From Stegostoma tigrinum (lineage: Eukaryota), in contig NC_081400.1 in the NCBI RefSeq assembly GCF_030684315.1, forward strand, positions 3,589,795-3,653,794: a stretch of 64,000 bases of DNA, given 5' to 3'. Below are positions 541 to 57,451 of the stretch, piece by piece. The notes below the pieces were generated by a model that saw only the letters and a list, made by a program, of their open reading frames with translations, had not been told where the DNA came from and searched no databases. The position numbers and the translations under genes are program-made. Position 1 is the stretch's first letter. Each line of letters opens with the position of its first letter.

Positions 541-552
541 GGGTCTTTATTT

Positions 553-16560: not shown

Positions 16561-16919
16561 CACAACAGGCCTGGAAGAGGTGTCAGAGAAAAGGAGGGGT
16601 GCAAGGCTGGAGGAAGTTACAGAAATGGGAAGTGGTGACATGGCTTCAGTAGGTTACAGAGATTAGAAGGGTGCTAGAGGAGATGCCAGAGACAGGGAAG
16701 TGGGTAGAAGCTGTTGGAGGTAACAAAGGATGGATGGGGTGTAGGAACTACAGCAGGTTTCAGGGACAGTGAGGGGTAAAGGGGATAGAGAGTGCTACAG
16801 AGGTAGGGAGAGGTGTAGGAACCTGAGGGTGTTACAGAGATTTTGAGTTTTGTCGGGGCTGGAGAATGTCACAGAGATAGGGAGGGATGTAGGAGCTGGT
16901 GTGATATCCAGTGAGGAAT

Positions 16920-17400
16920 CAAAGGGGTGGGAGCAAGAGTGAAATGGAGAATGACAGAATCCAGTGGATAAACAACAGGAGTCCACTTTGGTAATTTTGA
17001 GTGAACCACTCCTTGGCTGTTGGTCTGTTTGTGTAAATGTGTGACATGTCTGAGAAGGTGGGGCTTTGATAGATCCTCTGCAACTTCCCTCATGCTCGTG
17101 GGGGAAAGCACAGCTGCCTGTGTGATGTGTTGGAGCTGACCACTGATGGTGCCACGGGGTGCCGTTACTGGTGCTGCTGCTAATGTCTCAGTGATCAGAG
17201 CAGTTTTCAGTTCCTCAGACGACATGAACTTCCCCTTCCTGGCCTTCTGGGGTGAGTGACCACACCACCTGCAGCTCTTTCACAAACAACCTGAAAACAG
17301 CAAGGCTTCAACTCTGGGGAGCTAAAATGAGACTCAAAAGCCAAGCAGTTCCCCCGAGGTCGAAGTTGAGGGAGTGCCCTCAGTAAATTCAGATGGCGAG
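16920..17400. promoter_or_regulatory. Candidate B-cell enhancer, copy A (EICE, E-boxes, RUNX, ETS)
   Basis: Minus-strand TGAGGAACTGAAAAC 17203-17217; CAGCTG 17111-17116; ACTTCCCCTTCCT 17228-17240; ACCACA 17259-17264; CACCTG 17266-17271; TGTTTGTGTAAAT ~17026-17038. Confidence 0.55.
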
Positions 17401-18420
17401 GCAGCTTTGGTACTGGCTCTTCGCCTGTGTGATTCATCACTGGTGCGGCTTTAATCAGACTGCTAAGAGCAGTTGTTGTATGGTCACTTTCAAACTAACA
17501 AAACCTTTTAATGCAACCAGAGATTCCATCTAAGAAAGAGAAGGCAATGTAACCCAGCAACGTTGCTACATGATTTAGAACAATCAAGGCTAATTGCAAT
17601 ACAATTCTACTTTCCTCTCACATATCCCTCAATTCACTTTGTGCACCAAACTCTACCTATTAGAGTCTACCATAGGCAGAGAGAATGCCACAGATTCATC
17701 ATAATTTCTCTTCATCTCAGTCCAAATTGTCTGCTCCCTTAAACTGGAACATTTTCTAGACTCCCCAGCTGGTCTGGTTTGAATGGGAGGGCTTGAGTGT
17801 TGATGAACAGTCTCTCCACATCAACCCTGTCAAACTCTCTCAAACGTTTGTACATTTCAATGGGATCCCCTCACCTTCTAAGTGCAAAAGGTTATAGGCC
17901 CACTGTACTCACCAGACAGCCCTTCCCCTTGGTGAACTCCATTGTGTTCCTTCAGGGTTGGATCTTTCATTCCATAGGTGTGGAGACACAACTGCACACA
18001 TTGCTGCAGGAGAAGTCTTACCAACTCATTGTAAAATCTTGACTGCTGGGCATTCTTAATCCACCTGCTTAGATACGTCATGACAAATCTCTGAAATAGG
18101 TGAAACTTCAACTCAGAATTCCTCTCTCAAAGTAAAGAAACTATCTCTGCACCATAAAGGGCCTAAAGATCCTTCCAGTTACATCTTTCCCTCTCTCAAT
18201 AAACCTTTATACACTATTTCCACAAGCATTTGCTCTCTCCACCACCTACGCTCAATAGCAGCAGTGCATTCCAAATGCAAAATGCACTGCAGAAATTCGC
18301 CAAAGATTCTTAGCGTCTTCAAACCTATGTCCACGCCCATGTAGAAAGGAAAAGGTAGCTCATACATGGGAACAACTTGCCGTACGAGTTTCCCTCCAAG
18401 CCACTTACCACCATGACAAG

Positions 18421-18783
18421 GTAATGTATGGCTTGGAAAGGGTGGACGCTGGGAAGTTGTTTCCGTGAGGCGGGGAGACTAGGACCCATGGGCACAGCCT
18501 TAGAATTAGAGGGGGTAAATTTAAAACGGAAATGAGGAGACATTTCTTCAGCCAGACAGTGGTGGGCTTGTGGAATTCATTACCACGGAGTGCAGTGGAG
18601 GCCGGGACGTTAAATGTCTTCAAGGCAGAGATCGATAAATTCTTGATCTCACAAGGAATCCGGGCTACAGGGAGAGTGCAGGGAAGCAGAGTTGAAATGC
18701 CCATCAGCCATGGTTTAAATGGCAGAGTGGACTCGATGGGTCGAATGGCCTTACTTCCACTCCTATGTCTTATGGTCTTATGA
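18421..18783 (+). mobile_element. Young CR1 3' end inserted only in copy A
   Basis: RHFFSQTVVGLWNSLP..FKAEIDKFL; (TCTTATGG)n tail; absent from the paralogous sites at ~34965 and ~39960. Confidence 0.85.
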
Positions 18784-20679
18784 CTTGGAAACAGATCAGC
18801 TATTTCTTCAGTGTTGATAGGTCAAAATTCCCTCCCTCATGGCACTATAGATGTTCCTACACTACACAGACTGCAGCATTTCAAGAAGGCACCTTACCAC
18901 CAACTTCTCAAGGGTCAACTAAGGATGAATAATAAATGCTGTCCCAACCAGGGAGCTCACATCCCACATGTGAATAAAAGAAAAACCTTTGTTTTGCTAA
19001 GATAACAAAGTGTGAAGCTGGATGAACACAGCAGGCCAAGCAGCATCTCAGGAGCACAAAAGCTGACGTTTCGGGTCTAGACCCTTCATCTGTCTGTGAG
19101 GATGCTTGTTAACTTTCTCAATTCCCTTTAACTGAAATCGTTCTGACAATTCCTCTAAGAGCCAAAATATTCCAGCCCTTTCAGAAATAAACTGCCTGTC
19201 TATTCCTCCAACCGGAATGAACAACTCACATTTTCCCACATCAAAGTCCATCTTACACTTCCCTATGCAATTACTAATGCCAGCTATATCATTTTTCAGC
19301 CTTGCTCTTCCACTTCAAAACCTACTCCCTCCCTACTCTCCACCCCCGGGAGTTTCATATCTTCATCGCTTTGTGGCGATTTATCTTCACTGATGATTGC
19401 ACCATTAAAAATCGTTACAAGCCAGAGTTCAACAATAAATGTCCTCACCAAGGATTTGGACTCAAAAGCAGAGCTGTGAATAGGTACTTGAAAGGGATGT
19501 GATGGATATTTGAAAAATAATTGGAGGGTTCAATCAAAAATGAAAATCTTAGATTCATAAAGATCTCAAGCATAGAACAATGTATTTAAGCCCATCAATA
19601 TTGTGCCAATCAAAAACAACATCCTAACTATCCTAATTCCATTTTCCAGCACTTGGCCCACAACTTCGGCATTGCAACTGCACACCTGAATACTTCTTCA
19701 GTTATATGAGGATTTCTGCCTCTACCATCTTCAGAGGAAAGCAGTTACAGATTCCCACTGCCTTCTGGGTGAAAGCAACTTCCCTCACACATCCTCAAAA
19801 CATCCTGCCCCTTACCTTAAATCTATGATCCCTTGCCAATGAGCTCTCTACAATGGGGTAAAGCTCCATCCCGTCCATCCTATCTATGATCCTCATGATT
19901 TTATGCAGCTTGCAGCACTTCTGCCAATGAATAGGCAGCCAGCCCAGAGTGGCCTGCAAGCTTGGGACAGTTGCCAGATCAAGCCAGACACAGGATCCAA
20001 TCTGAACCATCCCCAAGTGTTTCACCAAATCTCCTCTGAGGTGGTATAATCGGACATAACAATGTTTAAGAGGGATTTAGACAGGCACACGAGCACGTAA
20101 GGAATAGAGGCATATTTGTCATGGATTCAGTTTGGAATGGCATTGTGGCCCACACGGACATGGTTGCCTAAGGGCCTAACCCTATGTTGTACTCTTTATT
20201 CTATGCTATATATCTTCGCACAGTTTCCTCTTCTCCAAGGAAAATAAGTCCAATGTATCCTCTGTATCTTAATGACTGAAATCTTCCAGCTCAGGCAACA
20301 TTTTGATAAATGTCCTCTGCACCATCGCCAGTGCTATCACGTTGTCCCTGTCATGTGGACACCCGAACTCTGCCCAATATTCTCTAGCTGTGGCCTAACC
20401 ACCATTTTATACAGTTCCCAACTCAATCTCACTATTTTTATTCTATTGAGCAAAGGTTCATTCTTGGGTCTGATTCATCCAGCATTTCTATTGGCCAGAA
20501 TCAGGATGTTAGTTGAATAAATTTCAGATGAATCACTGTCTTTTCTTAAACAATTGGCCACTTGAATGTATTAGACAAAAAGAGGAGTTGTGTGGTGAGA
20601 TATCCTGTATGGATTGGATTGTTAGAATTGCTTATGCTTCGGGTAGCAAAAGGCATTTTTTAGATTATTTGAAATCTCC

Positions 20680-21150
20680 AGGTCGGACTTACACAGTTAA
20701 CAGTAGGGCCCTAATTAGAGTTGAAAAACAGAGAGACTAGGAGTGCAGGTGCATTGTTCTTTGAAAGTGATCTCACAGGTGGACAATGTTTGGCGCACTT
20801 CTGTTCAGGACTGAGTACAGGAATGGGAGGTCATATTACAGCTGTAGAAGGCATTGGTAAGGCCCCGTTTGGAGTACCACACACAATCCTGGTTGTCCTG
20901 TTGTAGGAAGGATGTTAATAAACTCGAAAGGGTGCAAAAAGGTTTAGAGGATGTTACCACGTTTGGAATTTTAAGGAGAGGTTCAATAGGCTGGGCATGC
21001 GGCAGGCTGAGAGGTGACCTTATCGAGGTTTACAGAATCTTCAGGGGCATAGGTGAAGTGAATAGCCAAGGACCTTTCTGCAGGGTAGGGAAACCCAGAA
21101 CAGGAAGGCATAGTTTTAAGGTGAGAGGGAAAAGATTTAAAAGGGACCTG
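20680..21150 (+). mobile_element. CR1 3' fragment, paralogous to 42490-43255 but cut short at the deletion breakpoint
   Basis: VRPRLEYHTQSW...RLRGDLIEVYRI; ends at ...AGGGACCTGAG, whereas copy C continues to its tail. Confidence 0.8.
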
Positions 21151-24100
21151 AGTAGGGGGAAGAGTTAGGGTAAGCAATAGCCAGATCACTCCTTCATTCA
21201 CAGTACCAACTAACAGCAGGATGGAGATATGTCTACTCTCTGTGTTTTCATGTTTAAACCTTTGCGTTTCTTCTTGTGCCAGCACGTTGATGTGGAACTG
21301 AGGACAAAGCATTCCCCACCCAAAGGTCTGTCAAGTACCAAGGATTAATTGCTGCTCATTGGCAGACATAGGCTTTCAGAAGACTTGCCGGCAATGGAGT
21401 CATTTATTAATATATTTTAAAAAGGCTTTCCAAATTAAAAACTATAAACTTCATTCCATGCAAGTGGAAGCAACACCCGCTATCACAGACCCACAGAAAT
21501 GTGGTTGACTCTTAACTGCTGTCTGGGTAATTAGGGATGGGCAACAAATGTTGCCTGAGCTAGTGGCACCCGCATCCCGTGAATGAATAAAAGTAACCTC
21601 ACACCTACATTTCCACACATACATAGACACATCATATTGTCTTTTTTTACACACTTAACTCTCTCTCCCTCACATACACACACACCTTGTATCTTTTACA
21701 CACATTCTTTCTCATGATGAGGAGATGCCAATGTTGTACTGAGGAGAACCAAGTCAGAAGTGAAACATCATCAGGTCATAGTTTTATAAGCTTATTTGAA
21801 ATCACAAGCTTTCCAAATGCTGCTCTTTCATCAGGCCAGGTGCTCCTTCGTCAGCAGTGCTCAAAATGCTTGTGATTTCAAATAAGCTTGTTGAATTATA
21901 ACCTGGTGTTGTGCGATTTCTGACATGCTCACTTGAACACACATATATAAAGACTTTCTCTCACACACATACTCACATGTTCTCGCTTGCATGCACTCTC
22001 TCTGATTTGCCCCTCTCTCACACACACACACCCTTCCGCTCACACATGTGCACTTTCTCTCTTGCGCATACCCTCACTCCCTCTTTCTTACACGCTCACA
22101 CTTTCTTTTTTCGCATATTCTCACTGACATAGAGACACAATCTATCTCTTACATACTTTCTCTAACTCTCCCTCTCTCTTACACATCCTCTCTCTCACTC
22201 TGTCTCACATATGAACTCTCTACACACTCACACTTTCTCTTTTTCACACTGTCACTCTCACACATTCTCTTTCTCTTAAATGCTCTCACTGACTCCACCC
22301 CTCTCCTACCCATATTCAATCTAACTCTGTTTCACATATTCACTCTTTCATACATATTCAGACTTTCTCTTTTTCACATTCTCACTCTCACGCACACTCA
22401 TACGCTCTCTCTTTGACACACTCCCTCTAACCGTCCCCTCTCTCTTACATGTACAGTCACTAATTGTCTCACACACACACCCTCTCTGTCACACACATCT
22501 GTTCTCTCTTTCACAGTCTCAGTACCACATGATCTCTCATACACACACTTTCTTTCTCTTACATGCACTCTCTCTAATGCATTTTCTCATGTACATATTC
22601 ACATATTCTCTCCTTTTCACACACTATGACATGTAAAGTCCTGCAGAAATTCTCTTCCTCTCTCACACACACACTTCCTCAGGCAATCACTTTCACACAC
22701 TCATATTCAGAGCCCAGTACAAGGGGGGTGCTGTCTGTCAGGATATCGAGTGAGTCATTTGGAACTGAGATGAGGAGAAAGTCTTCACTCAGGGAATCGT
22801 GAACTGGTGGAATTCTCCAGCACAGAAGGTTGGGGAGGCCAAGTCATTGAAGATATTCCAGAAATATATAATTTTCCAGAGCTAAAGATGTTGAAGTGTG
22901 TAGTCAAGAGCGGAAGAATGCCATTGAGATACAGGTTGAAAAATGATTGCAATGAATTGCAAAGCAGACCTAGTAGACGAAATGGTCTAATACCATTCCT
23001 ATATTTTTTGTGTTTGATTCTGGTACATAGATGCACACATGCAATGCACGCATGTGTGTGCATGCGTACACTCATACACATACACACGTGCGCGCGCGCG
23101 CGCGCGCACACACACACACACACACGAGCCTTCACCACTGATAGAGGGTGGAAACTAAATTTGAACATAGTTAAAGTTTCATTCCAAAATTATCCAGGAA
23201 TTTGTAAGTCCTATACATGAACATAATAATCCTGGGGCTAAATGATTAGCAAAAACACACACCGGAAAGAGAAGAGACAAACTAGAAGTTGCTGGAAAAG
23301 CTCAGCAGGTCTGGCACCTGTGAAGAGAAATCGAGGTTAACATTTCAAGTCCTGTGATCCTTCCTCAGAACGAGGCGAGATTCGTCTTATGAGCAGTTTC
23401 GGCCTGTAATCATCAGTTCTTAGAAGAAAGAAAGGAGAACTAATTTAGGTGGATAAGATGTTGTAGGGATTGACAACGTAGACGTAGAGAGGATGTTTCC
23501 TCAAATGGGGCAATCTAGATGGAGAGGTCATGTTTTTAAGATAAGAGGTTACAGATTTAAAACAGAGATGAGGAGGAATGATTTCTCTCAAAGGGTTGTG
23601 AATCTATGGAGTGTGGTAGATGTTACATCACTGAGTAACTTTGAGGAGAAAATGGGTTTAAATTTAAGAATGGGTCAAGGGGACTATCAAGTGTGCGCAG
23701 GAAATTGCAGTTGAGGCTGAGATGAGATTAGCTAAGACTGTATTGTATGGAGGAACAGGCTAGAAGGGCTGAATGTCTCCCCCCTCTCAGATCTCATGCA
23801 ATTTTAAGACTCCTGCAGAGAATAGACAACCTTGCAAAATCTGGGTGTCCATAGCCTGAACAGAAACAGAGAGTCGATCCAGAATGTTTGACAAAACTCA
23901 TTTTTTCAGCTATTTCCCAGCCCAAAATCGAAAGAAAGTACACTGACTGAAGAAACAGCTCAATGCTACTATTAAGTGGTTCCTCTTGTTGGATTGGAGC
24001 CCAGGCTCGGCATCTACTGCAGGTGGGCACCATTATCATCCCTGCCACAGAGTGGCACTGTGACTGATGTGTGTGTCCACAGCAAAACCGATAATTGGCT

Positions 24101-24219
24101 CTGTGACTGAGATATATTTTCATCTCTTCCGCTAGGTAGTGCTGTGACATCTATCTACTGTGTGCACACACTCATCCCTGCTGCTAGATGGCGATGAGTT
24201 TTTGAGTTATTTGCTGTCA

Positions 24220-24880
24220 CACAAATTGCCTGATTTATTATTGTCACATGCAGCTAGAAACAGAGAAAGTTTTGTTTTGCATGCAGTACAGACAGATCAA
24301 AAGATACAACATGCATTAGGGTAACAACACAGAGAGAAGAATATCATGTTATCGCCACACAGAAGGTGCACAAAGAACGAGATCAACATAAAATTTACAA
24401 TGTGAGAGGCTCATTCAGAAGCCTAACAACAGCAGGGAAGAAGCTGTTCCTGAATCTGTTCACATGTGTGTTTAAATTTTTGCAACTTCTGCCCGATGGA
24501 GGACGTTAGAAGTGATTATAACTGAGGTGAGAATACATTTTAATTGTGCTGGCTACCTTCTCGAGGCAGTGAGAAGCACAGATAGAGTTAATGGAAAGAA
24601 AGTTGGCTTGCATGATTAATTGGGCTGTGTACACAACTCTCTGTAGTGTCTGCTGGTCTTCAGCAGAACCGGTGCCATACCAAACCATCTGTTAGATTGA
24701 TTTAAACGGCGCATCTGCAAAAATTACAAAGAATGTTTGCGGACATGCCAAATTTCCTTAGTGTGCGGAGGAAGCAGAGGCATTGTTGTGCTTTCCTGGC
24801 TAGATATGACAGGATGTTGGTGATCAACAATCCTCAGAACTTAATGCTTTGAACCCTCTCCACCTCAAAGCCATTGATGT
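24220..24880 (-). mobile_element. Rex1/Babar-type LINE 3' fragment
   Basis: WYGTGSAEDQQTLQRVVYTAQLIMQANFLSI; same family as 62100-62490. Confidence 0.7.
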
Positions 24881-25189
24881 AGAAAGGTAGGTGAAATGCA
24901 CTTTGTCACCATAATCCTGCGCTGATTAGAGTTAAACAAAGAATAAAAAGTAATTGCATCAACATGGTTCATTCTCTGTACAAGCGGTCTTCAAACAGCT
25001 CTCTGGCTTCTGAAAAGTGTCTCCAACGTTTTTGGGGCCCTGAGGAAACCCTGTTCCATATACGCTGATGATAACACCACCAGGAGTCCATGTTTCAGGC
25101 ATACTACAGCTAGTAGTACCCACTCAGGGCACCAGCTCCACCTCAGTGACCCACCACAACAATCGAGAATACCCACATCATTGCCACCG

Positions 25190-25285
25190 TTGATGACTGC
25201 TGACCCCAGTATTTGCAACTCAGATTGAAATCTGAATCCATTCCTCACAGTCCTTGCATGTCCACAGCTTCTCCTTGTTATAATG
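25190..25285 (-). pseudogene. Single decayed C2H2 zinc-finger remnant
   Basis: The minus strand reads EKLWTCKDCE, then after a 1-nt frameshift NGFRFQSELQI, matching the EKPWKCxDCGKGFxxxSxLxIH finger pattern. No further fingers are recognisable. Confidence 0.5.
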
Positions 25286-26025
25286 ATGTGCGCGTTGTGA
25301 ATATCCTCAACCCAGTGGTTGGACTGATATATATCCTGTTTCCCAATGCTATGCAGTGCTGTAGCTAACATACAAAAATATATAGACACATTAATCGCTG
25401 CAGCCAGGTGAGGATATGAGAGACTTTTTTATTTTAAATAAATATGAGCTCTCATTCTGCCGCTGGTGACAGTGTGACTGATATTTATCCTGATCACTGC
25501 TGCTGGGTGATACTGTAACTGCTATACATCTCCATCCTTAGTGCTGGGTGCTACTGTGACAAACATATATCCTCATCCCAACTATTAAAAGGCGCTCTGA
25601 ATGAAGTACATCTTCATCCACGCTGCTTTGTGATGCTGTGACTGACAGTTTGCTGCGCGGCTCCAATATTCATCACTTTCCTTACATGTTCCCCTAAGCC
25701 AGCTTTTCTGCTCTTGTGTGATCTCAAATCATATTCGCTGCAACTTCTCTTACACGTCTACTAGTTCAACAACATGACCAAACAGCCAGTCTGGGAAGAG
25801 GGGTCACTGGAGGGATCATCAACTGCAGTTTCACTAATTACATCAATAGTTTTAATGAAGGCATTATTTTCTCCTGCCTTTCCGAGGCATTGATTTGAGG
25901 GGTGGGAAATCTCTGTCTTCCTATGCACAAGGACTGGAAGTAAGACACTTCATTCCCAGTTCCTCCCGCTTGGATTACTGGAAAATTGTCTGCGTGCCCA
26001 CACTCCTTATTGCTCCTCTCTAGAA

Positions 26026-26039
26026 CCACTAGGTGGTGC
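26026..26039 (+). promoter_or_regulatory. CTCF-like motif (forward)
   Basis: CCACTAGGTGGTGC vs consensus CCASYAGRKGGCRC. Motif match only. Confidence 0.4.
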
Positions 26040-26219
26040 TTTGATATACACATGTCCACAGCCAAGCTGAGCTGACTGGCTCTAACAATTGCAGCTACAA
26101 TCGTCTGCCATTAATAGGAGGTCCTGGGTTTCCAAAGCGTGCAGATCCCCAAAGGTTTCCAAACAGCTTCATTGCTTTCTGTTTTTCTGCAACAACATCG
26201 ACACTAAACTTCAGTCTGT

Positions 26220-27000
26220 TTCTCTTTCTCCCACTTTCACTCACACTACCCCGACTACCCACCATTTCTATCTCTCCCTGTCAAGATCTTTCTCTGTCTC
26301 TTATCATCCCTCCATCTGTGCACTCTCTCTCACCGACCTTCTGTCACATTCTCCCCTTGCTCCCTTACATTCTTTCTGCCCAACACTTCACTTCCTCAAT
26401 CCTCCCTCACCCCTCGCTTCGCTCGCACTCCCACCTCTTTCTCACTCTCAACCTCTCTCCCCTACCTCCTTTCCTATCTCTCTCCCTTGCTTCTTCCGCC
26501 CGCGTCACTCTCTATGTCGATCTCAACACGCCCCCACATGCAAACTCTTACACTGTCTCACTCCCATCCCGCTCTTACCCTTCCTCTCCCTCGATCCTTC
26601 TGTATTCTCTCCATCACCACATTTTTTCAACACTCCTAGCTCTTCTCACTACTTACTCTCTCTCTTTGACATCTCGCCATCTCTCTCTGCCAGAATCTCC
26701 TCTTCCTCTCACTCCTGGTCTCTCTCTCTCTCTCACCTTGTTTATTACATATTCTCCCAAACTAATTCTCTCACTTCTTTCCTCCTCTATCCACCTTATG
26801 CACCCTATCTCTCTCTCACCCCCTCTCTTTCTAACTCTCTCAGTCTACACATGCTCTCCCTATCCCCTCACACCCTCCTTCTCCCTGTCTCTTGTTTTCC
26901 GTCTCCCTCACTCTCTTCCTCTGTCCCTCTCTCTTTCTCTCTCACGCAGTCTCGCTCTCTCATCCTCCACCACCTTAGTCTCCAGTCCTCCCTCTGTCTA
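26220..27000. repeat. CT-rich low-complexity tract
   Basis: Pyrimidine-rich TCTC/CTCC; similar tracts at 21920-22700 and 48715-48930. Confidence 0.9.
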
Positions 27001-28439
27001 GCCAAGTCTTCCTGGCTGCACCCTGCTAATATTCCATTGTTGATGCCACAGTCCTTCTCTCCTCCTTCCCCATGCGTTAAAAACCGAGGCACATTGCACC
27101 CAGCCTCGCAATCAGACTCAAGTCACTGCCCTCATGATGTACTCATGAATTCTGTAATTGCAGCTGGCAGACCCATGCGGTACTGAGTAAATGCAGCACT
27201 GTCAGAGGTGACATTTGGCTGTCCCTGAGCATGAAGTTTAAACCCAGGCTTTGTCATGTGTGTGCAAGAAGAAAAAGTGGATTCGTGTGTAGGGCAGGTA
27301 TATCCTTAGCACGACCAATGTATATCTGCAAATAGAGGCCCCTAGGTTGACACGAGGGGCAAGAGTTGAGGTAAGGTTCAGATTGAATGGTGGAGCAGGT
27401 TTTTCGGGCCAAATGGTCTTCTCCTGCTCCTAGTTTTGGTGTCACCCCTTTGGCTCTCTGGCTGTTGCTGTGCCTCACACGTGTCGAAGGGGTCTTTGGT
27501 ATCTCAGTGCCTGGTTCAAATTGATCGACTGAATTCAAAACGTGTTGACTTGGTAAAAACTGCTGCATGGCCTTTCAATACACAGATTTCAATTCAGGCA
27601 CTCTCTGTGCACGAGCAAACTTTCAAGTTGCTGCTCACAGACATCCATTTTAAATCCCCAAGCATATAAAAAACAAATTATCTTTTAAAGGATACAATGC
27701 TTTTACCCTAGCATTTTATAAATTTTAACCTCCTGCCTCCCAATCCACGAGCACTCCACCCAATTTCTCCACACTACTGACACCTCCTGAGCAACACTGA
27801 CCTCAGAAGTTCTTCATTAAGCCAGAAATGACTGAATTGAAAAATTAATTGAGCCCTGATGAATTCAGTCCTTGGCAAGGGAGTAGACTACCATTTACTC
27901 GAATAGGTTCACGGACAAGGGCTTCAGTCCCTAAAAAGATAGAGAGAAGCTAGGATGGTCGTTCTCGAAATAGGGAATGTCCAGGGAGAGATTGAAGTGA
28001 GATGTTCATCGCTATGAGGAAAGGGTTTCCAATCGAGAGAGTGACAGAGAAACCGTACCCATTGGAAAGAGGATCGTGAACAAAAGGATGGACACGGATT
28101 GAAGTGAATCAGAAAATGAACCTCAGGGTGGGGGGGGGGGGCGAGGAAAGAAGCAGTATTTGTGCTTTTGATGCAGCCAGCTGTTGTGATCTGGAATATG
28201 TTGTGTGAAAGACAACTAATTCAACTGAAACTTACAAACGTGAGAAGTGGTGGGGTGGTGGGAAACAGAGATACACTCGAAGAAGAAATATTTTCAGTGG
28301 ACGTTGGGTGGAAATACGTGTCATTAATTCAAGAGATCGTCATAACAGCCTGATGAAGGAACAGCTTGTGATTTTAAATACACCAGTTGGAGTATACCCT
28401 GGTGTCATGTGACTTCTGACATTAATGCCCCTCATAAAT

Positions 28440-28870
28440 TTATAAACTTTTGTAAGGCCACTCCTCAGCCTTCCATGTTCTAGGGTAAAACAGCCCCAGC
28501 CTATTCAACCTAGTCCTATCGCCCAACCCCTCCAATTCTGGCAACATCCTTGTCAATGTTTTCTGAAACTTTTCAAGCTCACCAACATCTTCCCGAAAAC
28601 AGGGAAATTCAAACTGAACACGTTTCCTCAAAGTTTCTCAACCAATAGCCTTTAAGGCCACAACCTGATATCCCAACTCCTAAACTCAATGAATTTTGAA
28701 CGAAGGTGAGCGTTCCAAACACTTTCTTCAGCCCACTGTCCAAATGCAACTTCACTTTCAAAAAACAACACACCTGAATGCCTTGGTCTCTGTTTGGAAA
28801 CACTCCCCAGGGGGCTGCCATTAACTGCAAAAGTCCGGTCCTGATTTCTCTTACCAAAATGCAATACTTC
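28440..28870 (-). mobile_element. CR1 3' fragment
   Basis: MHFGKRNQDRTFAVNG; REDVGELEKFQKTLTRMLPELEGL. Confidence 0.8.
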
Positions 28871-31800
28871 ATGAGGATGTAGGAGATAAAGGAGTGTATA
28901 GTGAGAGGGAGGTAACAGTGGCTGGAGGACGAGGGATCTCGTGAAGAATGCAACGGCTGGAAAGGATATCGGGGGGAGGGAGTGATGCAGGGGCTGGAGG
29001 AGGCCATAGAGATAGCAAGGATGTAGGATTTGAAGAAGATGTCAGAAACAGAGCAGGATGTCAGCACTGGAAGGAGTGAGAGAGGTAGGGATTGACATAG
29101 AGATTGGAGAAGGTTAAAGCAACAGGGAGTAGTATAAATGCAAGAAGGGGCTACGAACATAGGAACGAGCATTGAGACTGAACAGGGTTACAGAGATAAA
29201 GGGGGTATAGGGGCTGGAGGGGCTTACAAAGATAGTGAGGGAAGAAGGGGCTGGACAAGATTGCAGAGGTGAGGAGAGGTGTAGACGTGGGAGGAGGCGA
29301 CAGAGTTAAGGTGAGGTGTAGGTGTGGGAAGAAGTTACAAAGGTGGAGAGTTATGTTGGGGCTAGCATTACCTACAGAGTTGAGATGTGTAGTGACTGCA
29401 GAATATCGCAGAGATAGAGAAGGATGAAGGGCAGGAGGAGATGTCAGAGGTGGGGAAGTATGTATGGACTGGAGGTGGTGAAAAAAATAGGGAGGGATGT
29501 TGGGGTTGGTGCAGAGGACAGTGATGGTGAGGAATGTTGGGACTAGAGGGTGTAATAGAGATAGGGAGGGGTGTAGGGGTGGTGACAGAAATGCAGAGAG
29601 GTGTAGTGGCTGGAGCATGTGTCAGAATTAAGAAGAGTGTTGTTATTGGAGGAATTTACAGAGGTAGGGAGAGGTGTAGGGGCTGGAGGAGGTGCAGAGA
29701 TAGCGAGGGTTGTATGGACTGAAGGTGCTTAAAGGGATAGGAATTGGATGCAGGATTTGGAGTAAGTTACAGCAATGAGAGGCATGTAGGTGCTGAAGGA
29801 CGCTACAGTGAAAGAGAGGGAATTGTGGCTGCAGATGCTCACAGAGAAAGGGAGAGGTGAAGGGATTGGGGGCGTGACAGAGACTAGGCAGGGTGACAGT
29901 TCTAGAACAGGTTGCGGAGATCATGTGAGGTTGTAGGTGTTGAAAGAGTTTACTGAGATCTGAGGAGTGCAGGGAGAGGGTGTTATGGAGATAGGGATTG
30001 GGTGTAAAGGATAGACCGTGTTACAGAATTATCAAAGGATGTAGAAACTAAAGGATTCTGCAGGGATATTGAGGTTTGTAGTGGATAGAGTTGCTTACAA
30101 TGATTGGGAGATGAGAAGGGACTAGAGGGTCGTCAGAGAAAGGGAATGGTGTAGCGGCTGTAGAAAGTGACAGAGGTAACAGGAAGAGGTTATAGAGATA
30201 AGGAAGATGTTTGAAGAGGTGACAGAGTTAGATGATGGTGTGGGTATGGATGAAGTGACAGAAATAAGAAGGGTTGTTGGGGTGGAGGTGGTTACAGAGA
30301 TAGGGAGAGGCGAAAGCACTGGAGAAAGTGTCAGACATATGGAAGGTTGGAGAGGCTGCAGCAGTTTTCAGACATAAGGAGGGGTGTAGTGGTTGGGAAC
30401 GGTAGCAGAGTTGTGCAGGGGCTGGAGGAGGTTGCATAGACAGTGAGGACATAGGTGCTGAAGGAGGTGACAGAGATGGAGACGTGTATTTAAGTTTTAG
30501 GAGGTGCCTGGGAATGGAGGAGTGTACAAGTTGGAGGAGCTACAAGAGTTAGGGAATGCTGAAGGGAATGGAGGAAATTACACAGAAGGAGTTATACGAG
30601 GACTGGACGGGGCTTCAAGAATAGGGTGGATTTTAGGGGCTGGAGGACGTTACATAGACAAGGAGTGGTGTGGAGGAGGTGACAGAGTTAAGGAGGGGTA
30701 TTGGGCTGAAGGTGGCTATCAATATAGGGAGTAGTGTAGGAGATGATGCACGTTACAAAGGTAGGAGGGGTATAATAGCTGGAATAGCCTACAGGGATAG
30801 TGAGGTGTTTATGGAAGAGAGGAGGTTATAGAGATAAGGACTGGTGTGGACTTTAGAAGAAATGACAGAGTTGACAAAGGGTGTTGGGATGGAGGTGGTT
30901 ATAGTGAAAGGGAGTGGTTTAGGAGATGATGGACGTTACAGAGGTAAAAGGGGTGCAACAGCTGGAAGAGTCGAATGAGATACTGAGATGTTTACAGCAG
31001 GGAGGAGGCTGCAGAGATAAGGAGGTTTTGTAGGGGCTGAAAAACATAGCAGAGGTATGGAGGGATGCAGGATCTCAAGGAAGTTACAGAGACAGGGAAA
31101 GATGTTTGGGCTTGAGTTGCTGACGGGGTTAGGGAGGACATAGGGGCTGGAGGTGGTGACAGAGATAGGAAGGAGTATCAGGTCTGGAGGAGGTGACAGA
31201 GGCAGCGAGGGGTGTAGGGTTTGTAGGCGGTTTCAGAGCCAGGAGTGGTGCAGGAGTTGGAGGAGGTTACAGAGATAGCGAGGGGTGTAGGTTTTGGACC
31301 AGGCTACTGAGATAGGGTGGGTTATACAGGCTGGAAGGGTTTACAAAGATAGAGAGGGGCTTTTGGGCTGACGTTGCTTACATGGATACAAAAAGTTGTT
31401 GGGACTAGAGGATGAGGTGGTGTGCAGGAACTGGAGGAAGTAACAGACATAGATAAAATTGTGGGGCAGGAGGAAGTGATAGAGATAGGGAGGGATGTCA
31501 GGGCAGGAAGACGACATAGAGATAAGGAGTGAGTGTAGGGGCTGGGGAATTTCACAAAGATAGAAAGGTGGTGAACGGGCTGAAGGATGTTACAGAGGTA
31601 GGGAGGTGGGTAGGGTCTGGAAGAGATTACTGCGAAAGGGAGGGTTTGTAGAGATTGGTGTATGTCATAGAGATAGCAAGGGGTTGTTGTTGCCGGAGGA
31701 GGCAACAGAGAGGGGGAAGGGAGTTATGGCTGGAGTGACTAACAGAGTTAGAGGGAAGTGAAGGGACAGGCAGGAGTGACATTTTGGTGTATGGGCTGAA

Positions 31801-33660
31801 GGAAGTGACACAGATAAGCGGGATGTAGGGATGGAGGAGGTTAAAAAGATATGGATTGGTGTTGGAGATGGAGACGGAGACATAGGTAGGGATTGTTAGG
31901 CTGGAAGAGATGACAGACTGAGTATGGTGTGGGTGTTGAAAGAGGTGACAATGATAAGGACAGGAGTTGAGACAGAGGTAGTTACAGAAATAGGGAGTTG
32001 TGTAGACAATAGCGAAGATTCCAGAAGATAGTAAAGGATGTAGCGGCTAGAAGAGGCTACAGAGATAGGGAGAGGGTGTTGGGGCTGGAGGAGGTGGGAG
32101 AGTTAAGGAAGGGGTGGGGTGAGAGAGAGACATTACAGAATGGAGGAGGTTATAGAAATAAGGAAGACTGTGAGGGCGGAGGGGATTACACAGAGACTGA
32201 GGGGTTATGGGATGGAGAAGATGGCAGAGATAGGGAGGGGTGTCCGAACCGAAGGAGATTACTGTAATCGGGATTGTTGTAATACCTGGTGATGGTTTCA
32301 GGTTTTAGGTGGAATGAATGGGCTAGAGATGATTGCAGAGATATTGAGGGGCAGAGGGGCTGGTAAAAGCACTAGAGGAAGGGAGTGACATAAGGACATT
32401 GAAGAGGTGATACAAATAGGGAGGGGTGTAGGGGTTGACGGTGGTTACAGAGATAGGGAGAGGTTTGGGGCTCGAGGAGATTATGCAGGTCGAGAAGAAG
32501 TAGAACCCAGAGCTGGCTAAGCAGAGTGAGAAGCATGCAGTGGCTACAGGAGCTCACAGAGTTATGGAGGGATGTAGAAGATGCAGGAGGTTACAGAAAT
32601 AGGGAGCAATTTAGGAGTTGCAAGAGGTTGCAGTTACAGGGATGCGTGTAGGGCTGTGGATGCCTACAGAAATAAGGAGAAATGTTGGGGCTGTAGGTGG
32701 TAACAGGTAGGGGCTGGTGTGTTTAAAGAATGTTGCAAGACATGTTACAGGCAGCTATGGCTTTGCTCATGCTCTGTAGGGTAAAGGCAGACTCTACATC
32801 AAACGTTCACCTTCTCAGCCATGTCACACATTTACGCAAACAGAAGCATGGGAGACGGGTGGTGTGCAGGAACTGGAGGAAGTAACAGACAGATGTTTGG
32901 GCTTGAGTTGCTGACGGGGTTAGGGAGGACATGTGGCTGGAGGTGGTGACAGAGATAGGAAGGAGTATCAGGTCTGAAGGAGGGACAGGGAGGGATGTAA
33001 GGACTTGAGGTGGTTACAGAGATAGAGAAGGGTGTGGGCGTTGGAGGGGTTGACAGAAATATGTAGAATCTGGGGGCTGGAGGAACTGACAGACATAGGG
33101 AGGTGTTCAGGGTTGAATGCCATTGCAGAGACAGGGAGTGGTGCATGGATTGGGTGGTGGTTACAGAAATAGGGAGGATTTAGGGACTTGAGGAGGTTAC
33201 AGAAATGGGTAAAGGTGCATGGCGTGGAGGAGGTATAGAAGGTGCGTTTGGATTAGCGCAGGTGACAGAGACAGTGGAGGGTTCAAGACTTGGGTTTGAT
33301 TCCAAAAATGGGGAGGGGTGCCGTGCTGGAGGAGGCTACTGCGGTAGGGAAAGGTAATCACAACTATTGGAGATTACAGTGACAGGGGAGCCTTTTGGGG
33401 CTTAGGCTGTGACAGAAACTGACAGGAGCATACGGGCTAATGAATTTACAGAGATAGGAAGAGGTGTAGGAACTGTAGGTGGTTACAGAGATGTGGGAAG
33501 ATGTAGGAGATGGAGGGTTTCAGAATTCGGAAGGGTTATAATGGATGAAGTGTGCTGCAGAGACAAAGAGAGGTGTTAGGAATGGAGTGTGTCACAGAGA
33601 TATGAAGTGACATTGGAACTGGAGAAGTTTGCAGAAATAGAGAGGGATGTGGGAGCTAGA
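28871..33660 (+). repeat. Degenerate purine-rich 37-bp minisatellite array
   Basis: Consensus ~GGAGGAGGTTACAGAGATAGGGAGGGGTGTAGGGGCT; 37-bp phase, e.g. 31269 and 31306; strong G/A strand bias. A shorter array lies at 16570-16910. Confidence 0.9.
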
Positions 33661-33689
33661 TGATTGAAAGTTCCAGTGTCAGGCTCGAG

Positions 33690-34130
33690 TGTTTGGAACG
33701 GGAGTGAAATGGGGAATAACAGAGTTCAGAGGAAGATATCAGGTGTCCTTTTAGGTGGCCGAAGTGGACCCGTCTCCCATGCTTCTGTTTGCGTAAATGT
33801 GTGACATGGCTGAGAAGGTGAACGTTTGATGCAGAGTCTGCCTTTACCCTACAGAGCATGAGCAAAGCCATAGCTGCCTGTATCATGTCTTGGAGCTGAA
33901 GTCTGATGGTGCCAGCAGGTGCTGCTGCTGTTGCTAATCGCTCAGTGATCAGAGAGGTTTCAGTTCCTCGACCGATATGACACTCCCTTCCTCTCCATCT
34001 GGAGCTAGTGACCACACCACCTGCAGCCCCTTCAAAAACAACCTGAAAACAGCATCACTTCAGCTCTTGGTAACTAAAATGAGGTACTTGAAATGTCACC
34101 CATTTCCCCTGGGTTTAAGGTCGAGGGAAT
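33690..34130. promoter_or_regulatory. Candidate B-cell enhancer, copy B
   Basis: Minus-strand GAGGAACTGAAAC 33957-33969; GCAGGTG E-box 33915-33921; ACCACA 34011-34016; CACCTG 34018-34023; TTGCGTAA 33789-33796. Confidence 0.55.
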
Positions 34131-35462
34131 GTGCTGCGCTGTTCTGCACAACTGAGGCTGATTGTTACATAAGCATACATTCCTTTCACTGATGCCTCGT
34201 CTCGTTTAGTGCGCAAAATTTGACTCATTCGAGTGTCTATCGGGCATAGAGAATGCTACAGATTCACGAGGCTCTGAGTTAAAGGATTTCTCTTCATCTC
34301 GTCCAAATTGCCTGTTCACATAGGCTGGAAGGTGTTGTCGACTCTGCAGCTAGTGACTTTGGAATGGGCCAGTAGAGTGTTGCTGGCGGTGGGACTGGGA
34401 GCAATATATCTCCACATCAACCTTGTCAAACCCTCTCAAACTCTGATATCTTTCCATTCTAATTTTGCGAGATTTTCAGCCTACTCCCCTCATCGGGCAA
34501 GCCCTTCCCCTTGGTGGACCTCCATAGTGATGCCTCAGAGAATAATCTACCGTTCCATAACTGAGGAGACTACAATTCTGCACATTGCTGCTGGAGTATT
34601 CTCACCAACATACTGTATAACTGCAGTAAAATATGTGTTGTTTGGCATTAGGTGAGAGTTGAGCCCAGATTTCCTGGCTCAAAGGCAAGGAAATAATGAC
34701 TGCACCAGAAGGGACACTAAAAATTCTTCCTGTTATATTCTTGCTCTTTCACGATACGTTCTTGCACAGTCCTTCCACAAACATTCACTCCTGCCACTCA
34801 GTAGCAGCAGTGTGTACCCATCCACAAGATACACTGCAGAACTTCGCCAAAGATCATTTGCACTTTCCAAACCCACAGCCATTTCAATCTGAAAGGGCAA
34901 TGACCACTGTTACATGGTAACACCATCCCCTGCAAGTTCCCCTCCAAACCACTCACCATTCCATCATGAAAATTTAATGGCCATTTCTTCAGTGTTGCTA
35001 GGTCAAAATTCCCACCCTAATAGCACTGTGGTGGATGCATCTACACCAAACAGGGCTGTAGTGGTTCAAGAAGAGATCTCACCACCACCTTCTCAAAGGG
35101 CAAATAAGGGTGATAAATACAGTCCCAAACAGGGACCCCACATCCCTAATTTGTATGCTGTACAGCTTGTTAACTTTCCCTATTCCCTGTATCCGTAATC
35201 CTTCTGACAATTCCTCTGACGACAAAAATATCTCTGGCCTTTCAGGCATATGCTGTGTTGCCTTTCCTCTGACCAAAGTGAATAATTCCACATTTCCCAC
35301 ATCAAAGTCTCACTTCCTTACTCAATTGCTAATGCAGTCTCTATCCCTTTTCAACCTCGCTATTCCACTTCAAAGCCTGGTCTCCTTCAAATCTTCATCT
35401 CCTCCTTCTGCCAAGTTCTCTTCACAGATGGCCACACCATTACCAATTTAAAATCATGACAA

Positions 35463-36035
35463 TGAGAATCTGAAATTTGGGTCCAGGCACAAGATGGCTG
35501 ATGGTGCAAGTTAGCAACAAAATGGCTTCCAGCGTGGGAATTGTAAATTTTGCTAGAGCTGCTCTTTTAGACTGGGAACTCTGAGTTCTGCTAGACCTGC
35601 ATAAATAAAGCAGTAATGACAAGATAATGCAGTACTAACCATTCTAGCTGACCTTCGGTAGCAAATGTTATAGATCTGTATGGCGAGACAAAAAGTAACG
35701 TAAACATTGTGACGTAAGTTGTTAACCAGTTAATACTATAGGATAATAAACTGTCAATGAAGCAATATCATGTATTGATTGGTAATTGTTTGAATACACT
35801 ATGCGATCACACCATGTACCCTGCCTTAAGAAAAGTATAAAAATGTCTTTGTAGTAACCTATGATGTGCAGCTCCTCCGAGGAATATGGAAGTGCTCAAC
35901 TTCTGTGTTTTCCGGAAGATCTGTACCCAGCCAATTGAAGAAACAAAGAGTAAAGTCTTAAACAGCCAGACGGACTGCAAGTGTTCATTGACTGAGCGCG
36001 GAATCGAGAGACCCCACCGGGGGTCTAGATTTACA
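35463..36035 (+). mobile_element. Solo LTR, 573 bp, with 4-bp TSD ACAA
   Basis: Starts TG (35463) and ends CA (36035); ACAA at 35459-35462 and 36036-36039; absent from the paralogous sites (~19415, ~40795); internal TATAAAA at ~35835. Orientation is inferred from the TATA box. Confidence 0.8.
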
Positions 36036-36104
36036 ACAAGACCAAGGCCAGAAGTACATCCCGTTTGTCAAGGATCCTGACTCAAAGCAGAGCTGAATAG
36101 GAAG

Positions 36105-37680
36105 TGGCAGAGATAAGAGGGATGTAGGAATGGGAATGCTACAGAGATAAGGAAGGTGTGTTAGGGCTGAAGGAGGTGACAGAGATAGGGGTGGTGTGGA
36201 GGTCGGAAGGGCTGACAGTGGCAAGGACTGGGACTGTAATGGAGGCAATTACAGAGATATAGAGTGTTCTGGGGGTTGGTGGAGGTTACAGAGATTGAGA
36301 GCCTACAGAAATAAGGAGATAATGTATGGGTTGGAGGAGGCGACAGAGAGGGAATGGTGCATAACCTGGAGGAGTTTACAGCGATAAGGAAAGAGGTACG
36401 ATGAAGGGGCTTAAAGAGAGAATGAGGGGTTATAGAATGGAGGATATTAGAGAGGTAGGTTGTGGTGTAAGGCTTGGAGGAAGTTACAGAGGTAAGGATG
36501 GAGGGCATGGAGAAGACGATGGAGATAGGGAGGCATGTAGTATTTGGTGAAAGTCACTGAGAAAGGCATTGTTGGAGGAGAGTGCCACCCAGAGAAGTTA
36601 GCACAGACACTGTTGGGTGTAAGCGCTGCTGGAGGTAACAGGCGTAGGGAATGGAATATAGACTTAAAGAGGTGACACAGATAGAGACTATGTAGGGAAT
36701 GGAGAGAGGTAACAGGGGTAGTGAGGTGTTCAGGGATGGCGGAGGTTATAGAGATAAGGAGAGCTATAGTGAATGAAGAAAGTGACAGAGATAGGGAGTA
36801 GGTAGAGACCGGACCAGGTTACAGTGAGGGGAAAGAGTGTGGAGGCTGGAGGAGCTGACAGAGTGGTGCAGTGGTTTAGGAGCTGGAAGAGGTTGCAGAC
36901 ATATGGATGAGTGTAGGGTCTGGGAACGGTTACAGAAATAGGGAAGTTGCCTGGGCTGCAGGTGGTAACAAAAGTAGAGAGTGATGCAGCGTCCAGAGCA
37001 TGTTGCAGAGGTATATAAGCTCTGGACATGGTTGAAGAGATAGGGATGGGGTAGGCGCTGGAGGAGTTAACAGAAATCGGGAATCTATTGGCTGGAGAAA
37101 GTGGCAGAGATAGGGACGGGTGTAGGAATTTAAGCAGCGTGTGGAGATGAAGCGGGATATCGGAGCTGTAGGAGGTAACAATGATAGGGAGATATTTGTG
37201 GCTGGAAACAGTTGCAGAGGAAGGGTGTAAGGACTGGTAGTGGTTACAGGGACAAGTAGGGTTGTCGGGGCTTGAGGTTGTTACAGAGATGGGTGGGGTG
37301 AAAGGGATGGAGGGCTTTACAGAGAAAGTGGAGGGTAAAGGACTTGGAGTTGGTGGCAGAGACAGGCGGGGCTATGGGGCTGGAGGCAGTTACTGAGATA
37401 AGGAAGCTGTGTAGCAGATGACAGTGACAGGTAAGGTTTTCGGGGCTAAGGTTGTGACAGAGATACAGAGCGGAGTAGGAGCTAATGAATTTGCAGAAAT
37501 ATGGAGAAGTGTAGGAGTTGGAGGTGATTACAGAGATGTGGAAAGATATGGCAGATGGAGGGTGTTTCAGAGATCGCATGGGTGAGGGATGGAATGTGTT
37601 ACAGAGGCAAGGAGTGATGTAGAGGCCGGAGAAGTTTATAGAAATGGGAGGGGTGTGGAAGCTGGATTTTTGAAAGCAGG
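36105..37680 (+). repeat. Second array of the 37-bp purine-rich minisatellite
   Basis: Same unit; 37424-37680 is collinear with 33378-33660. Confidence 0.9.
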
Positions 37681-37689
37681 TGTGAGATC

Positions 37690-38130
37690 CAGCGTGGAAC
37701 TCGAGTGTTTTGGAAAGGAGAATAAGAGAGGGCTGAAGATAAACAGCAGAAGTCCATTTTGGTTACCTTGAGTGATGAGTCGCTTGCACGTCTGTTTGTG
37801 TAAATGTGTGACACGTCTGAGAGGGCGACCTTTTGATGGAACCTCTACATTTTCCCTTCCGCTCGTGAGTGAAGCCACAGCTGCCTGTGTGATGCACTGG
37901 AGCAAACAACTGACGATACCATAGGGTGCTGCTGTTGCTCATTGCTCAGTGATCAGAGGGGTTTCAGTTCTTCCACTGACATGATCCTACCCTTCCCCTC
38001 CATTTGGATCGAGTGACCTGCAGCCTCTTCACAAACAGACCAAGCACAGCATCGCTTCAGCTCTCGGGGGCTAAAATCAGGTGCTCAGAAACGCCACCCA
38101 GGGCTCCCACGTTTGTGGTCGAAAACCTGC
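37690..38130. promoter_or_regulatory. Candidate enhancer, copy C (gene-proximal, motifs decayed)
   Basis: The EICE GGAA core is changed (minus strand GAAGAACTGAAAC, 37961-37973). GACCACACCACCTG is reduced to GACCTG at ~38015, removing the RUNX site and E-box. CAGCTG 37878-37883 is retained. Confidence 0.45.
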
Positions 38131-43604: not shown

Positions 43605-43630
43605 TCATTTGCATTCCAGTGATTAAATAG
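43605..43630 (+). promoter_or_regulatory. Ig light-chain promoter: octamer/decamer and TATA-like box
   Basis: TCATTTGCAT 43605-43614 (octamer ATTTGCAT in light-chain orientation) and TTAAATA 43623-43629, ~140 bp upstream of the leader ATG. 7/8 octamer variants at 43515 (ATGCAAAA) and 43584 (ATTTGCCT). Confidence 0.85.
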
Positions 43631-43755: not shown

Positions 43756-43804
43756 ATGTTTTGGACGCTGCATCTGTTGTGGGCTCTGCTGCTCCACGCC
43801 ACAG
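43756..43804 (+). CDS. Ig light chain exon 1: leader (MFWTLHLLWALLLHAT-G)
   Basis: Hydrophobic signal peptide; phase-1 donor ACAG|GTCAGA. An alternative in-frame ATG lies at 43738. Confidence 0.88.
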
Positions 43805-43885
43805 GTCAGAAATTGCCTTGGATTAACACCTGCCTGTTAAATACTGGTTGGCTTTGTTTCATCCTGTGTGTTTCTTTAATGATAG

Positions 43886-44233: not shown

Positions 44234-44249
44234 GTAAGTGATTCTGTTT

Positions 44250-47681: not shown

Positions 47682-47687
47682 AATAAA
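47682..47687 (+). terminator. Likely polyadenylation signal of the light-chain gene
   Basis: First AATAAA, ~290 bp after the stop codon. Confidence 0.6.
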
Positions 47688-57333: not shown

Positions 57334-57451
57334 CTGTGAGAGGAAAAGGGGAAAATTAAACTGAAACTACTGACAAAAAAATTTCTCATACCAAACATAC
57401 AAGGGATAGAATAAGAAGATAACCACAAATGAATCGAGTGTTGACACTTAC

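What the first reader, a model, noticed from the sequence alone, without database searches (positions are those of the whole stretch)
16920..38130. Triplicated non-coding block carrying a kappa-3'-enhancer-type PU.1/IRF site, E-boxes and RUNX: candidate shark light-chain enhancer
Seen: three paralogous ~400-bp unique blocks (16920-17400, 33690-34130, 37690-38130), each directly after the 37-bp G-rich array. Copy A has minus-strand TGAGGAACTGAAAAC (17203-17217) with ETS, ACCACA and CACCTG sites within 55 bp. Copy B has GAGGAACTGAAAC, GCAGGTG, ACCACA and CACCTG. Established: GGAAnnGAAA is the ETS-IRF composite element, and GAGGAACTGAAAAC is, as I recall, the PU.1/IRF4 site of the mouse Ig-kappa 3' enhancer. 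E2A and RUNX are core B-lineage factors. Inference: this is a per-cluster light-chain enhancer sharing motif grammar with mammalian light-chain enhancers. I know of no description of it in sharks.
Basis: partly seen in the sequence, partly recalled or inferred. Interest (0 to 1): 0.8.

Follow-up and report, generated by a model that had tools for sequence, protein, structure and literature searches.

The report
Candidate upstream antibody light-chain enhancer
Three old copies of a 300-base non-coding stretch lie upstream of a single antibody light-chain gene, probably a shark's; they have changed more slowly than the DNA copied with them and carry binding motifs typical of B-cell enhancers, so they are a plausible but untested control switch for that gene.

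Summary
The three blocks and the motifs in copies A and B are real, and A's 15-mer equals the mouse kappa 3' enhancer PU.1/IRF4 site. The blocks are not stand-alone. They lie inside multi-kb segmental duplicates upstream of the window's only Ig gene, an intact germline-joined light chain with sigma-2-like CDR lengths (not kappa). Segment A is a copy of that gene's unit with the gene missing. A ~300-bp core is modestly more conserved than the co-duplicated flanks (69% vs 57% three-way invariant, scan-corrected p~0.003), with invariance clustered in runs. The finding's whole interval is not (p=0.07). Against the reading: copy C, nearest the gene, has lost the EICE's ETS half, the RUNX site and the CACCTG box, so the named motifs are no better conserved three-way than the rest of the core. 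The 15/15 match also owes bases to A alone. Best reading (~0.5): a duplicated, partly redundant, 5'-positioned B-lineage enhancer of the light-chain gene. Main rival: a passenger of segmental duplication. 'One enhancer per cluster' and 'kappa 3'-type' are not supported. Genome-wide copy number and activity were not testable.

The parts
17024..17331 (.). Core copy A (in the gene-less duplicate); EICE reads on the minus strand
17203..17217 (-). EICE of copy A, 15 of 15 identical to the mouse kappa 3' enhancer PU.1/IRF4 site; the 5' T and the fourth A are private to A
17235..17271 (.). Second ETS core (kept in A, B, C), RUNX ACCACA 17259-17264 and E2A box CACCTG 17266-17271 (A and B only)
17026..17046 (+). 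Forkhead-type TRTTTRY match kept in all three copies, followed by a 14-bp three-way invariant run (factor unknown; forkhead consensus recalled)
17187..17200 (+). 14-bp three-way invariant run next to the EICE, factor unknown
17322..17331 (+). MEF2-like CTAAAATNAG in all three copies: 9 of 10 with the mouse lambda 2-4 enhancer MEF2 site, but fails strict YTAWWWWTAR at position 8
33784..34083 (.). Core copy B: intact EICE 33958-33967(-), CAGGTG 33916, RUNX 34011, CACCTG 34018; 9.8 kb upstream of the ATG
37791..38080 (.). Core copy C: orthologous EICE broken (37962-37971), RUNX and CACCTG deleted; a different consensus GGAANNGAAA at 37851-37860(-); CAGCTG 37878; 5.8 kb upstream of the ATG
32736..32860 (-). 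Partial inverted copy D of the 5' part of B (123 of 125 identical), 907 bp from it; lacks the EICE cluster
16564..16898 (+). G-rich ~37-bp array before A
29186..33654 (+). G-rich ~37-bp array before B (interrupted)
36139..37650 (+). G-rich ~37-bp array before C
16564..23834 (+). Segment A: colinear with 37.3-43.0 kb and then 49.35-51.2 kb, i.e. the light-chain unit without promoter, VJ and C
43607..43614 (+). Octamer of the V promoter
43756..43804 (+). Leader exon
43886..44233 (+). Germline-joined VJ exon; CDR1 8, CDR2 7, CDR3 6 residues (sigma-2-like lengths); no RSS found near it
47063..47391 (+). Constant exon (C1-set), in frame; AATAAA at 47682

Best explanation
The ~300-bp core is a B-lineage enhancer module of a sigma-2-type light-chain minilocus, placed 5' of the V promoter. 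An old burst of duplication (shown: three roughly equidistant copies) multiplied the head of the unit, and one copy lost its gene (inferred deletion). The copies now act as partly redundant distal enhancers on the surviving germline-joined gene (inferred). PU.1/Spi-B with IRF4/8 would bind the EICE, helped by ETS, RUNX and E2A sites, and loop to the octamer promoter to drive transcription and possibly hypermutation (inferred from mammalian and chicken enhancers). B is the best candidate for the working copy; C has lost or turned over several sites.
For: Core 199 of 289 columns invariant vs 634 of 1119 in flanks. Permutation scan over all columns gives p=0.0028 (300 columns) and 0.0036 (200 columns). 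The excess survives CpG masking (190/261 vs 616/1044), gap trimming (p 0.0004-0.04) and base-composition adjustment (76 variable vs 115 expected). All three branches are shortened (JC 0.131/0.126/0.141 vs 0.183/0.201/0.205), and private changes are balanced (25/24/27), so no pairwise conversion is seen. Sequence just outside the core falls to 45% and 43%. Invariance clusters in runs: 86 columns in runs of 8 or more vs 44 expected, p=0.003. A and B rank joint first among all 300-bp windows for EICE/ETS/RUNX/E2A. The same motif classes build the kappa 3', lambda and chicken 3'Core enhancers (PMC3972084). The gene is intact with an octamer promoter. Irf4 is up in nurse shark plasmablast and plasma-cell clusters (PMC10529500).
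Against: The effect is modest. The finding's whole interval gives 260 of 427, p=0.073, and the 80-column scan gives p=0.12. A-C alone is 76.9% vs 70.6% (p=0.013; 0.052 after trimming), and one flank piece reaches 76.6%. The copy nearest the gene lost the EICE ETS half, RUNX, CACCTG and a second IRF-like half site, yet its branch is as short as the others. Named motifs are 16 of 24 invariant vs 183 of 284 elsewhere in the core. The best EICE is in the gene-less copy. No NF-kB, octamer, EBF or strict MEF2 site lies in any core. With a wider motif set two other windows (53551, 3651) outrank the blocks. Flank neutrality is assumed. There are no functional data.
Confidence: 0.5

Rival explanations
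1. Passenger DNA: the block is ordinary sequence (possibly an old repeat relic attached to the minisatellite) copied in segmental duplications. Its small identity excess comes from early three-way homogenisation, local rate variation or faster-evolving repeat flanks, and the motifs are chance.
For: Segmental duplication alone explains the triplication and the position after the array. The whole-interval excess is not significant and A-C is borderline. The consensus EICE is not enriched, and a strict EICE arises in 43 of 300 shuffles. C lost the motifs. Two of the 15 matching bases are private to A.
Against: Scan-corrected excess, sharp edges, run clustering and balanced private changes. No independent full copy elsewhere in 64 kb (nhmmer).
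Confidence: 0.25
2. A real constrained cis-element with another target or role: an Ig cluster upstream of the window (to which it could be 3'), the GPCR gene at 56.4-57.4 kb, or a myeloid or interferon programme. The light-chain gene's own enhancer would then lie elsewhere, e.g. near 53.6 kb.
For: Constraint persists in the gene-less copy. The longest invariant runs are not the B-cell motifs. EICEs also serve non-Ig genes (PMC3291551), and Irf4/Irf8 also mark shark myeloid clusters. An octamer+EICE-like+RUNX+AP-1 window lies 6.2 kb 3' of C.
Against: The block is part of the duplicated light-chain unit. No other Ig exon was found in the window. The light-chain promoter is the nearest intact promoter identified.
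Confidence: 0.17
3. A decayed protein-coding exon.
For: One frame pair shows a synonymous bias (best frame 0.46; 3.4% of 2000 neutral simulations reach it; phase test p=0.037).
Against: Those frames carry 17 and 4 stops in 54 codons across three copies. The only nearly open frame (1 stop) has 8 synonymous vs 46 non-synonymous changes. There are frameshifting indels around the EICE, no conserved splice site was seen at the core edges by eye, and the three long ORFs have no Pfam hit.
Confidence: 0.06
4. A structured non-coding RNA.
For: Conserved non-coding sequence of RNA-gene size.
Against: No Rfam match at gathering score and no tRNA. The RNAalifold covariation term is a penalty on both strands; 2 of 78 and 3 of 76 pairs have a two-sided change. 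Only three sequences, so power is low.
Confidence: 0.02

Closest known systems
Mammalian Ig kappa 3' enhancer (3'E-kappa)
   Same: PU.1/IRF4 composite site: A matches the mouse site at 15 of 15, B at the central 12; E-boxes nearby.
   Different: Lies 5' of V, not 3' of C; the gene is not kappa (CDR2 7 vs 3); no NF-kB site; three copies; no flanking likeness seen by eye (no alignment was computed).
Ig lambda enhancers (mouse E-lambda 2-4 and 3-1, human, chicken)
   Same: EICE with an E-box downstream, an E-box upstream and a MEF2-like word upstream (9 of 10 with mouse 2-4); occur as duplicated copies in a duplicated locus.
   Different: No NF-kB site; the MEF2-like word fails the strict consensus and is about 108 bp from the EICE; the near downstream E-box is in B only; upstream position.
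Chicken Ig lambda 3'Core and other DIVAC elements (hypermutation targeting)
   Same: Clustered E-boxes, a core-binding-factor (RUNX) site and a putative PU.1 site; multiple partly redundant elements.
   Different: No activity shown here; upstream of the gene.
Duplicated IgH 3' regulatory regions of mammals
   Same: Enhancers multiplied by segmental duplication and retained; an inverted duplication is associated (PMC9936319 passages).
   Different: Heavy chain, 3' position, different elements; the inverted copy here is 125 bp and recent.

Membership tests
Ig kappa 3' enhancer | PU.1-IRF4 composite site | tested here: met
   A and B intact; broken at the orthologous place in C
Ig kappa 3' enhancer | Located 3' of the constant exon | tested here: not met
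   All copies are 5.8-26.5 kb 5' of the ATG; none between 47.4 and 64 kb
Ig kappa 3' enhancer | Linked gene is kappa (CDR2 of 3 residues) | tested here: not met
   CDR1 8, CDR2 7 vs isotype lengths in PMC5985310
Ig kappa 3' enhancer | NF-kB site | tested here: not met
   No GGGRNNYYCC in any core
Ig lambda enhancer | E-box, NF-kB, MEF2, PU.1-IRF4 in series | tested here: not met
   E-box and EICE present, NF-kB absent, MEF2 one mismatch in all three copies
B-lineage Ig enhancer (general kind) | Cluster of ETS/IRF, E2A and RUNX sites near an Ig gene | tested here: met
   A and B; 7 of 300 shuffles give such a cluster; C only partly
B-lineage Ig enhancer (general kind) | Purifying selection on the element | tested here: met
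   Core vs flanks among paralogues, scan p~0.003; modest
B-lineage Ig enhancer (general kind) | Named motif columns more conserved than spacers | tested here: inconclusive
   16 of 24 vs 183 of 284 three-way; 24 of 24 vs 212 of 284 for A-B, which is circular
B-lineage Ig enhancer (general kind) | B-cell accessibility, factor binding, orientation-independent activation | not testable with these tools
   Needs ATAC-seq, EMSA and reporter assays
Per-cluster enhancer | One copy per V-J-C cluster across the genome | tested here: inconclusive
   Three copies and one gene in the window; no vertebrate genome collection available
Sigma-2 (NS5, type I) light chain, for the linked gene | CDR1 8 and CDR2 7 residues | tested here: met
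   the lambda ranges also include these lengths
Sigma-2 (NS5, type I) light chain, for the linked gene | Groups with sigma-2 in a phylogeny | not tested
   No named fish light chains were retrieved (no hit; none in 12 of 15 supplementary files)
Dispersed high-copy repeat | Many independent insertions genome-wide | not testable with these tools
   In the window every full copy sits at the same place in the duplicated unit
Ig switch region (for the G-rich array) | AGCT-rich repeats | tested here: not met
   0-7.9 AGCT per kb vs 3.6 window average

The most novel reading that the evidence does not exclude
A cartilaginous-fish light-chain minilocus is driven by a 5'-positioned PU.1/IRF-RUNX-E2A enhancer. 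Copies orphaned by birth-and-death of clusters stay under selection and are pooled by the surviving germline-joined gene into a multi-copy control region. The EICE grammar of mammalian and bird light-chain enhancers, perhaps including hypermutation targeting, would then date to the root of jawed vertebrates.
Probability: 0.25. Interest if true: 0.75.

Novelty: new variant of a known kind. Interest (0 to 1): 0.5.

Why it matters
Cartilaginous fish keep their Ig genes as many independent miniclusters, and how each is activated is modelled only in general terms (PMC2435157 passages). A defined 300-bp candidate, with three natural variants that differ in EICE, RUNX and E-box status, makes this testable with small reporter and binding experiments. 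It would also date the light-chain enhancer grammar. Four searches aimed at shark or fish Ig enhancers and one on cod listed no description of a shark Ig enhancer. I saw only the top listings of the larger result sets, and most subscription journals are not in the library. Enhancers at Ig loci are expected, so the surprise is moderate; the upstream position and the retention in a gene-less copy are the unusual parts.

Tried and rejected
Protein homology search with the VJ domain found 1 candidate and no hit. The PDB search gave 3256 matches; the 60 shown were engineered or mammalian-type antibody chains. So isotype rests on CDR lengths, and 'shark' rests on recalled repeat and gene-family style, not on a call; germline-joined sigma-2 also occurs in gar, coelacanth and turtle. 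tblastn found no V or C remnant in segment A or elsewhere. Coding exon and structured RNA readings were tested and largely rejected. A switch-like role for the G-rich array is not supported by AGCT content. Simple pairwise gene conversion was rejected because private changes are balanced. Upstream flanks of the three arrays show no colinear homology. PMC2192671 was the only paper listed with the 14-mer, but the held text lacked it and no supplement was readable; the site was confirmed from PMC3972084 instead. The count of motif instances shared by two or more copies (8 in 308 core columns vs 7 in 1577 flank columns, p=0.001) is circular because the core was picked for its motifs, and is not used as main evidence. 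No alignment to mammalian or chicken enhancers was computed; that comparison is by reading. The available DNA collections hold no vertebrate genomes, so copy number and orthologues stayed unchecked.
Full report
OBSERVATION. The three blocks exist where stated, each after a G-rich ~37-bp array. Their best-conserved cores are A 17024-17331, B 33784-34083 and C 37791-38080, 72-77% identical by blastn. Every motif listed for A and B is present. The recalled mammalian site is right: A's minus-strand 15-mer is letter for letter the mouse kappa 3' enhancer PU.1/IRF4 site in PMC3972084 Fig S5B. An exact 15-mer is expected 0.00015 times in this window and the 12-mer shared with B 0.009 times. Two of the 15 bases are private to A, so the 12-mer is the fair unit. 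The bare consensus is not enriched (6 seen, 3.04 expected). A cluster of EICE, ETS, RUNX and E-box within 70 bp appeared in 7 of 300 locally shuffled windows, and in 0 of 300 with a stricter EICE; these definitions are post hoc.

Copy C has AGAA instead of GGAA in the EICE and an 8-bp deletion that removes ACCACA and CACCTG. It also lacks a second IRF-like word that A and B share. It keeps the IRF half and the second ETS core, and has a different consensus GGAANNGAAA about 110 bp away (37851-37860), which may be turnover or chance. A fourth, partial, inverted copy lies at 32736-32860 (123 of 125 identical to B).

CONTEXT. The window holds one Ig gene: octamer 43607, leader 43756-43804, joined VJ exon 43886-44233, C exon 47063-47391, in frame. 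No RSS was found near it. CDR1 has 8 and CDR2 7 residues, the lengths reported for sigma-2; kappa has a 3-residue CDR2 and sigma 9-10, while lambda ranges overlap (PMC5985310). Protein searches gave no named fish relative, so isotype is probable, not proven, and 'shark' is recalled from the repeat landscape.

The blocks are parts of larger duplicates. Segment A (16.6-23.8 kb) is colinear with 37.3-43.0 kb and then with 49.35-51.2 kb, including a shared (CA)n tract and its flanks. It is the light-chain unit without promoter, VJ and C. A LINE-like 3' end runs on across the breakpoint in the gene-bearing unit (42961-43235 matches another copy) but stops near 21150 in A, which favours deletion in A (inference; LINE label recalled). 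B is a shorter tandem copy ending near 35.4 kb. Flank distances are star-like (JC 0.38-0.41). So duplication explains the three copies, and the count is three blocks to one gene.

CONSTRAINT. I used the co-duplicated flanks as a baseline, assumed neutral. The core has 199 of 289 gap-free columns invariant (69%) vs 634 of 1119 (57%). Because I chose the core edges, I ran a scan: p=0.0028 for 300 columns and 0.0036 for 200, but 0.12 for 80. The excess holds without CpG columns, after trimming around gaps (p 0.0004-0.04) and after base adjustment. It appears on all three branches (about 30-37% shorter), has sharp edges (45% and 43% just outside), and is clustered in runs (p=0.003), equal to about 81 strictly held columns.

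Against constraint: the finding's interval (16920-17390) gives 260 of 427, p=0.073. A-C alone over 3664 flank columns is borderline (p=0.013, or 0.052 trimmed; one flank piece is as high as the core). The two longest invariant runs (17033-17046, 17187-17200) are not the named motifs.

MECHANISM. Shown: duplication history, modest constraint, motif content, an intact neighbouring gene. Inferred: a B-lineage enhancer in which PU.1/Spi-B and IRF4/8 bind the EICE with ETS, RUNX and E2A partners and contact the octamer promoter 5.6-26.4 kb away, with copies acting redundantly. Redundancy would explain constraint in the gene-less copy and site loss in C. The motif classes match those needed in kappa, lambda and chicken enhancers (PMC3972084). 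A CTAAAATNAG word in all three copies matches the mouse lambda 2-4 MEF2 site at 9 of 10 but fails the strict consensus; NF-kB, octamer and EBF sites are absent. Confidence 0.5. Rivals: passenger DNA 0.25, cis-element with another target 0.17, decayed exon 0.06 (synonymous bias p=0.034 but many stops), structured RNA 0.02.

COMPARISON AND NOVELTY. It may work like a kappa 3' or lambda enhancer, but it is not a member of either: position, isotype and NF-kB tests fail. Searches listed no described shark Ig enhancer (18 of 18, 20 of 93, 20 of 176, 13 of 14 and 20 of 64 listings seen). Papers seen: passages of PMC2435157, PMC3291551, PMC13307996, PMC12227049, PMC5192425, PMC5985310 (plus a term search of 12 of its 15 supplementary files), PMC10529500, PMC9936319 and PMC13639285; abstract passages only of PMC2192082 and PMC2192671; passages and supplements S4 and S5 of PMC3972084. 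Older work in subscription journals may describe such elements and could not be seen. Consensus patterns for RUNX, forkhead, MEF2, EBF, NF-kB and AP-1 are recalled.

VERDICT. A real, modestly constrained, motif-rich non-coding module in the duplicated unit of a sigma-2-like light-chain gene. It is a reasonable enhancer candidate with a ready-made allelic series, but the 'per-cluster' and 'kappa 3'-type' labels should be dropped. Interest 0.5.

Noticed in passing
window 16564-23834: A gene-less paralogue of the light-chain unit: upstream and downstream flanks joined with promoter, VJ and C missing, a trace of cluster birth and death.
   Followed up: yes
window 43756-47391 (+): Intact germline-joined light-chain gene with a 6-residue CDR3 and sigma-2-like CDR lengths; the leader splice donor is the less usual GTCAGA.
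   Followed up: partly
window 53550-53850: Octamer (53637), consensus GGAANNGAAA (53664), RUNX and AP-1 matches 6.2 kb 3' of the C exon; top window in the wider motif ranking and a rival enhancer candidate.
   Followed up: partly
window 32736-32860 and 33768-33892: 125-bp inverted duplication, 98% identical, 907 bp apart; recent event or assembly artefact.
   Followed up: partly
window 56405-57355 (-): 317-codon open frame of a rhodopsin-family GPCR (Pfam 7tm_1).
   Followed up: no
window 1-3000: ZCCHC3-type RNA-binding ORF at 3-572 and an element duplicated in inverted form (828-1852 vs 1944-2969, 97%); Penelope-like by recall, no Pfam hit.
   Followed up: no
window 4014-5716, 45589-46083 and others: Many broken LINE-type reverse-transcriptase fragments (RVT_1 hit at 4014-4955); LTR-retrotransposon-like pieces near 6285-6590 and 8850-9458 (label recalled).
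   Followed up: no
window 29186-33654 and 36139-37650: G-rich ~37-bp arrays with GC skew up to 0.66 on the gene's sense strand; not AGCT-rich; R-loop or G-quadruplex potential untested.
   Followed up: partly
window 26000-27200: Strongly pyrimidine-rich low-complexity tract (GC skew -0.65).
   Followed up: no
window 46155-46307, 48548-48714, 59127-59326: Assembly gaps (runs of N), one inside the J-C intron, so an intronic element there cannot be excluded.
   Followed up: no
window 9451-9614 and 62952-63170: Self-complementary (palindromic) stretches in the self-comparison.
   Followed up: no
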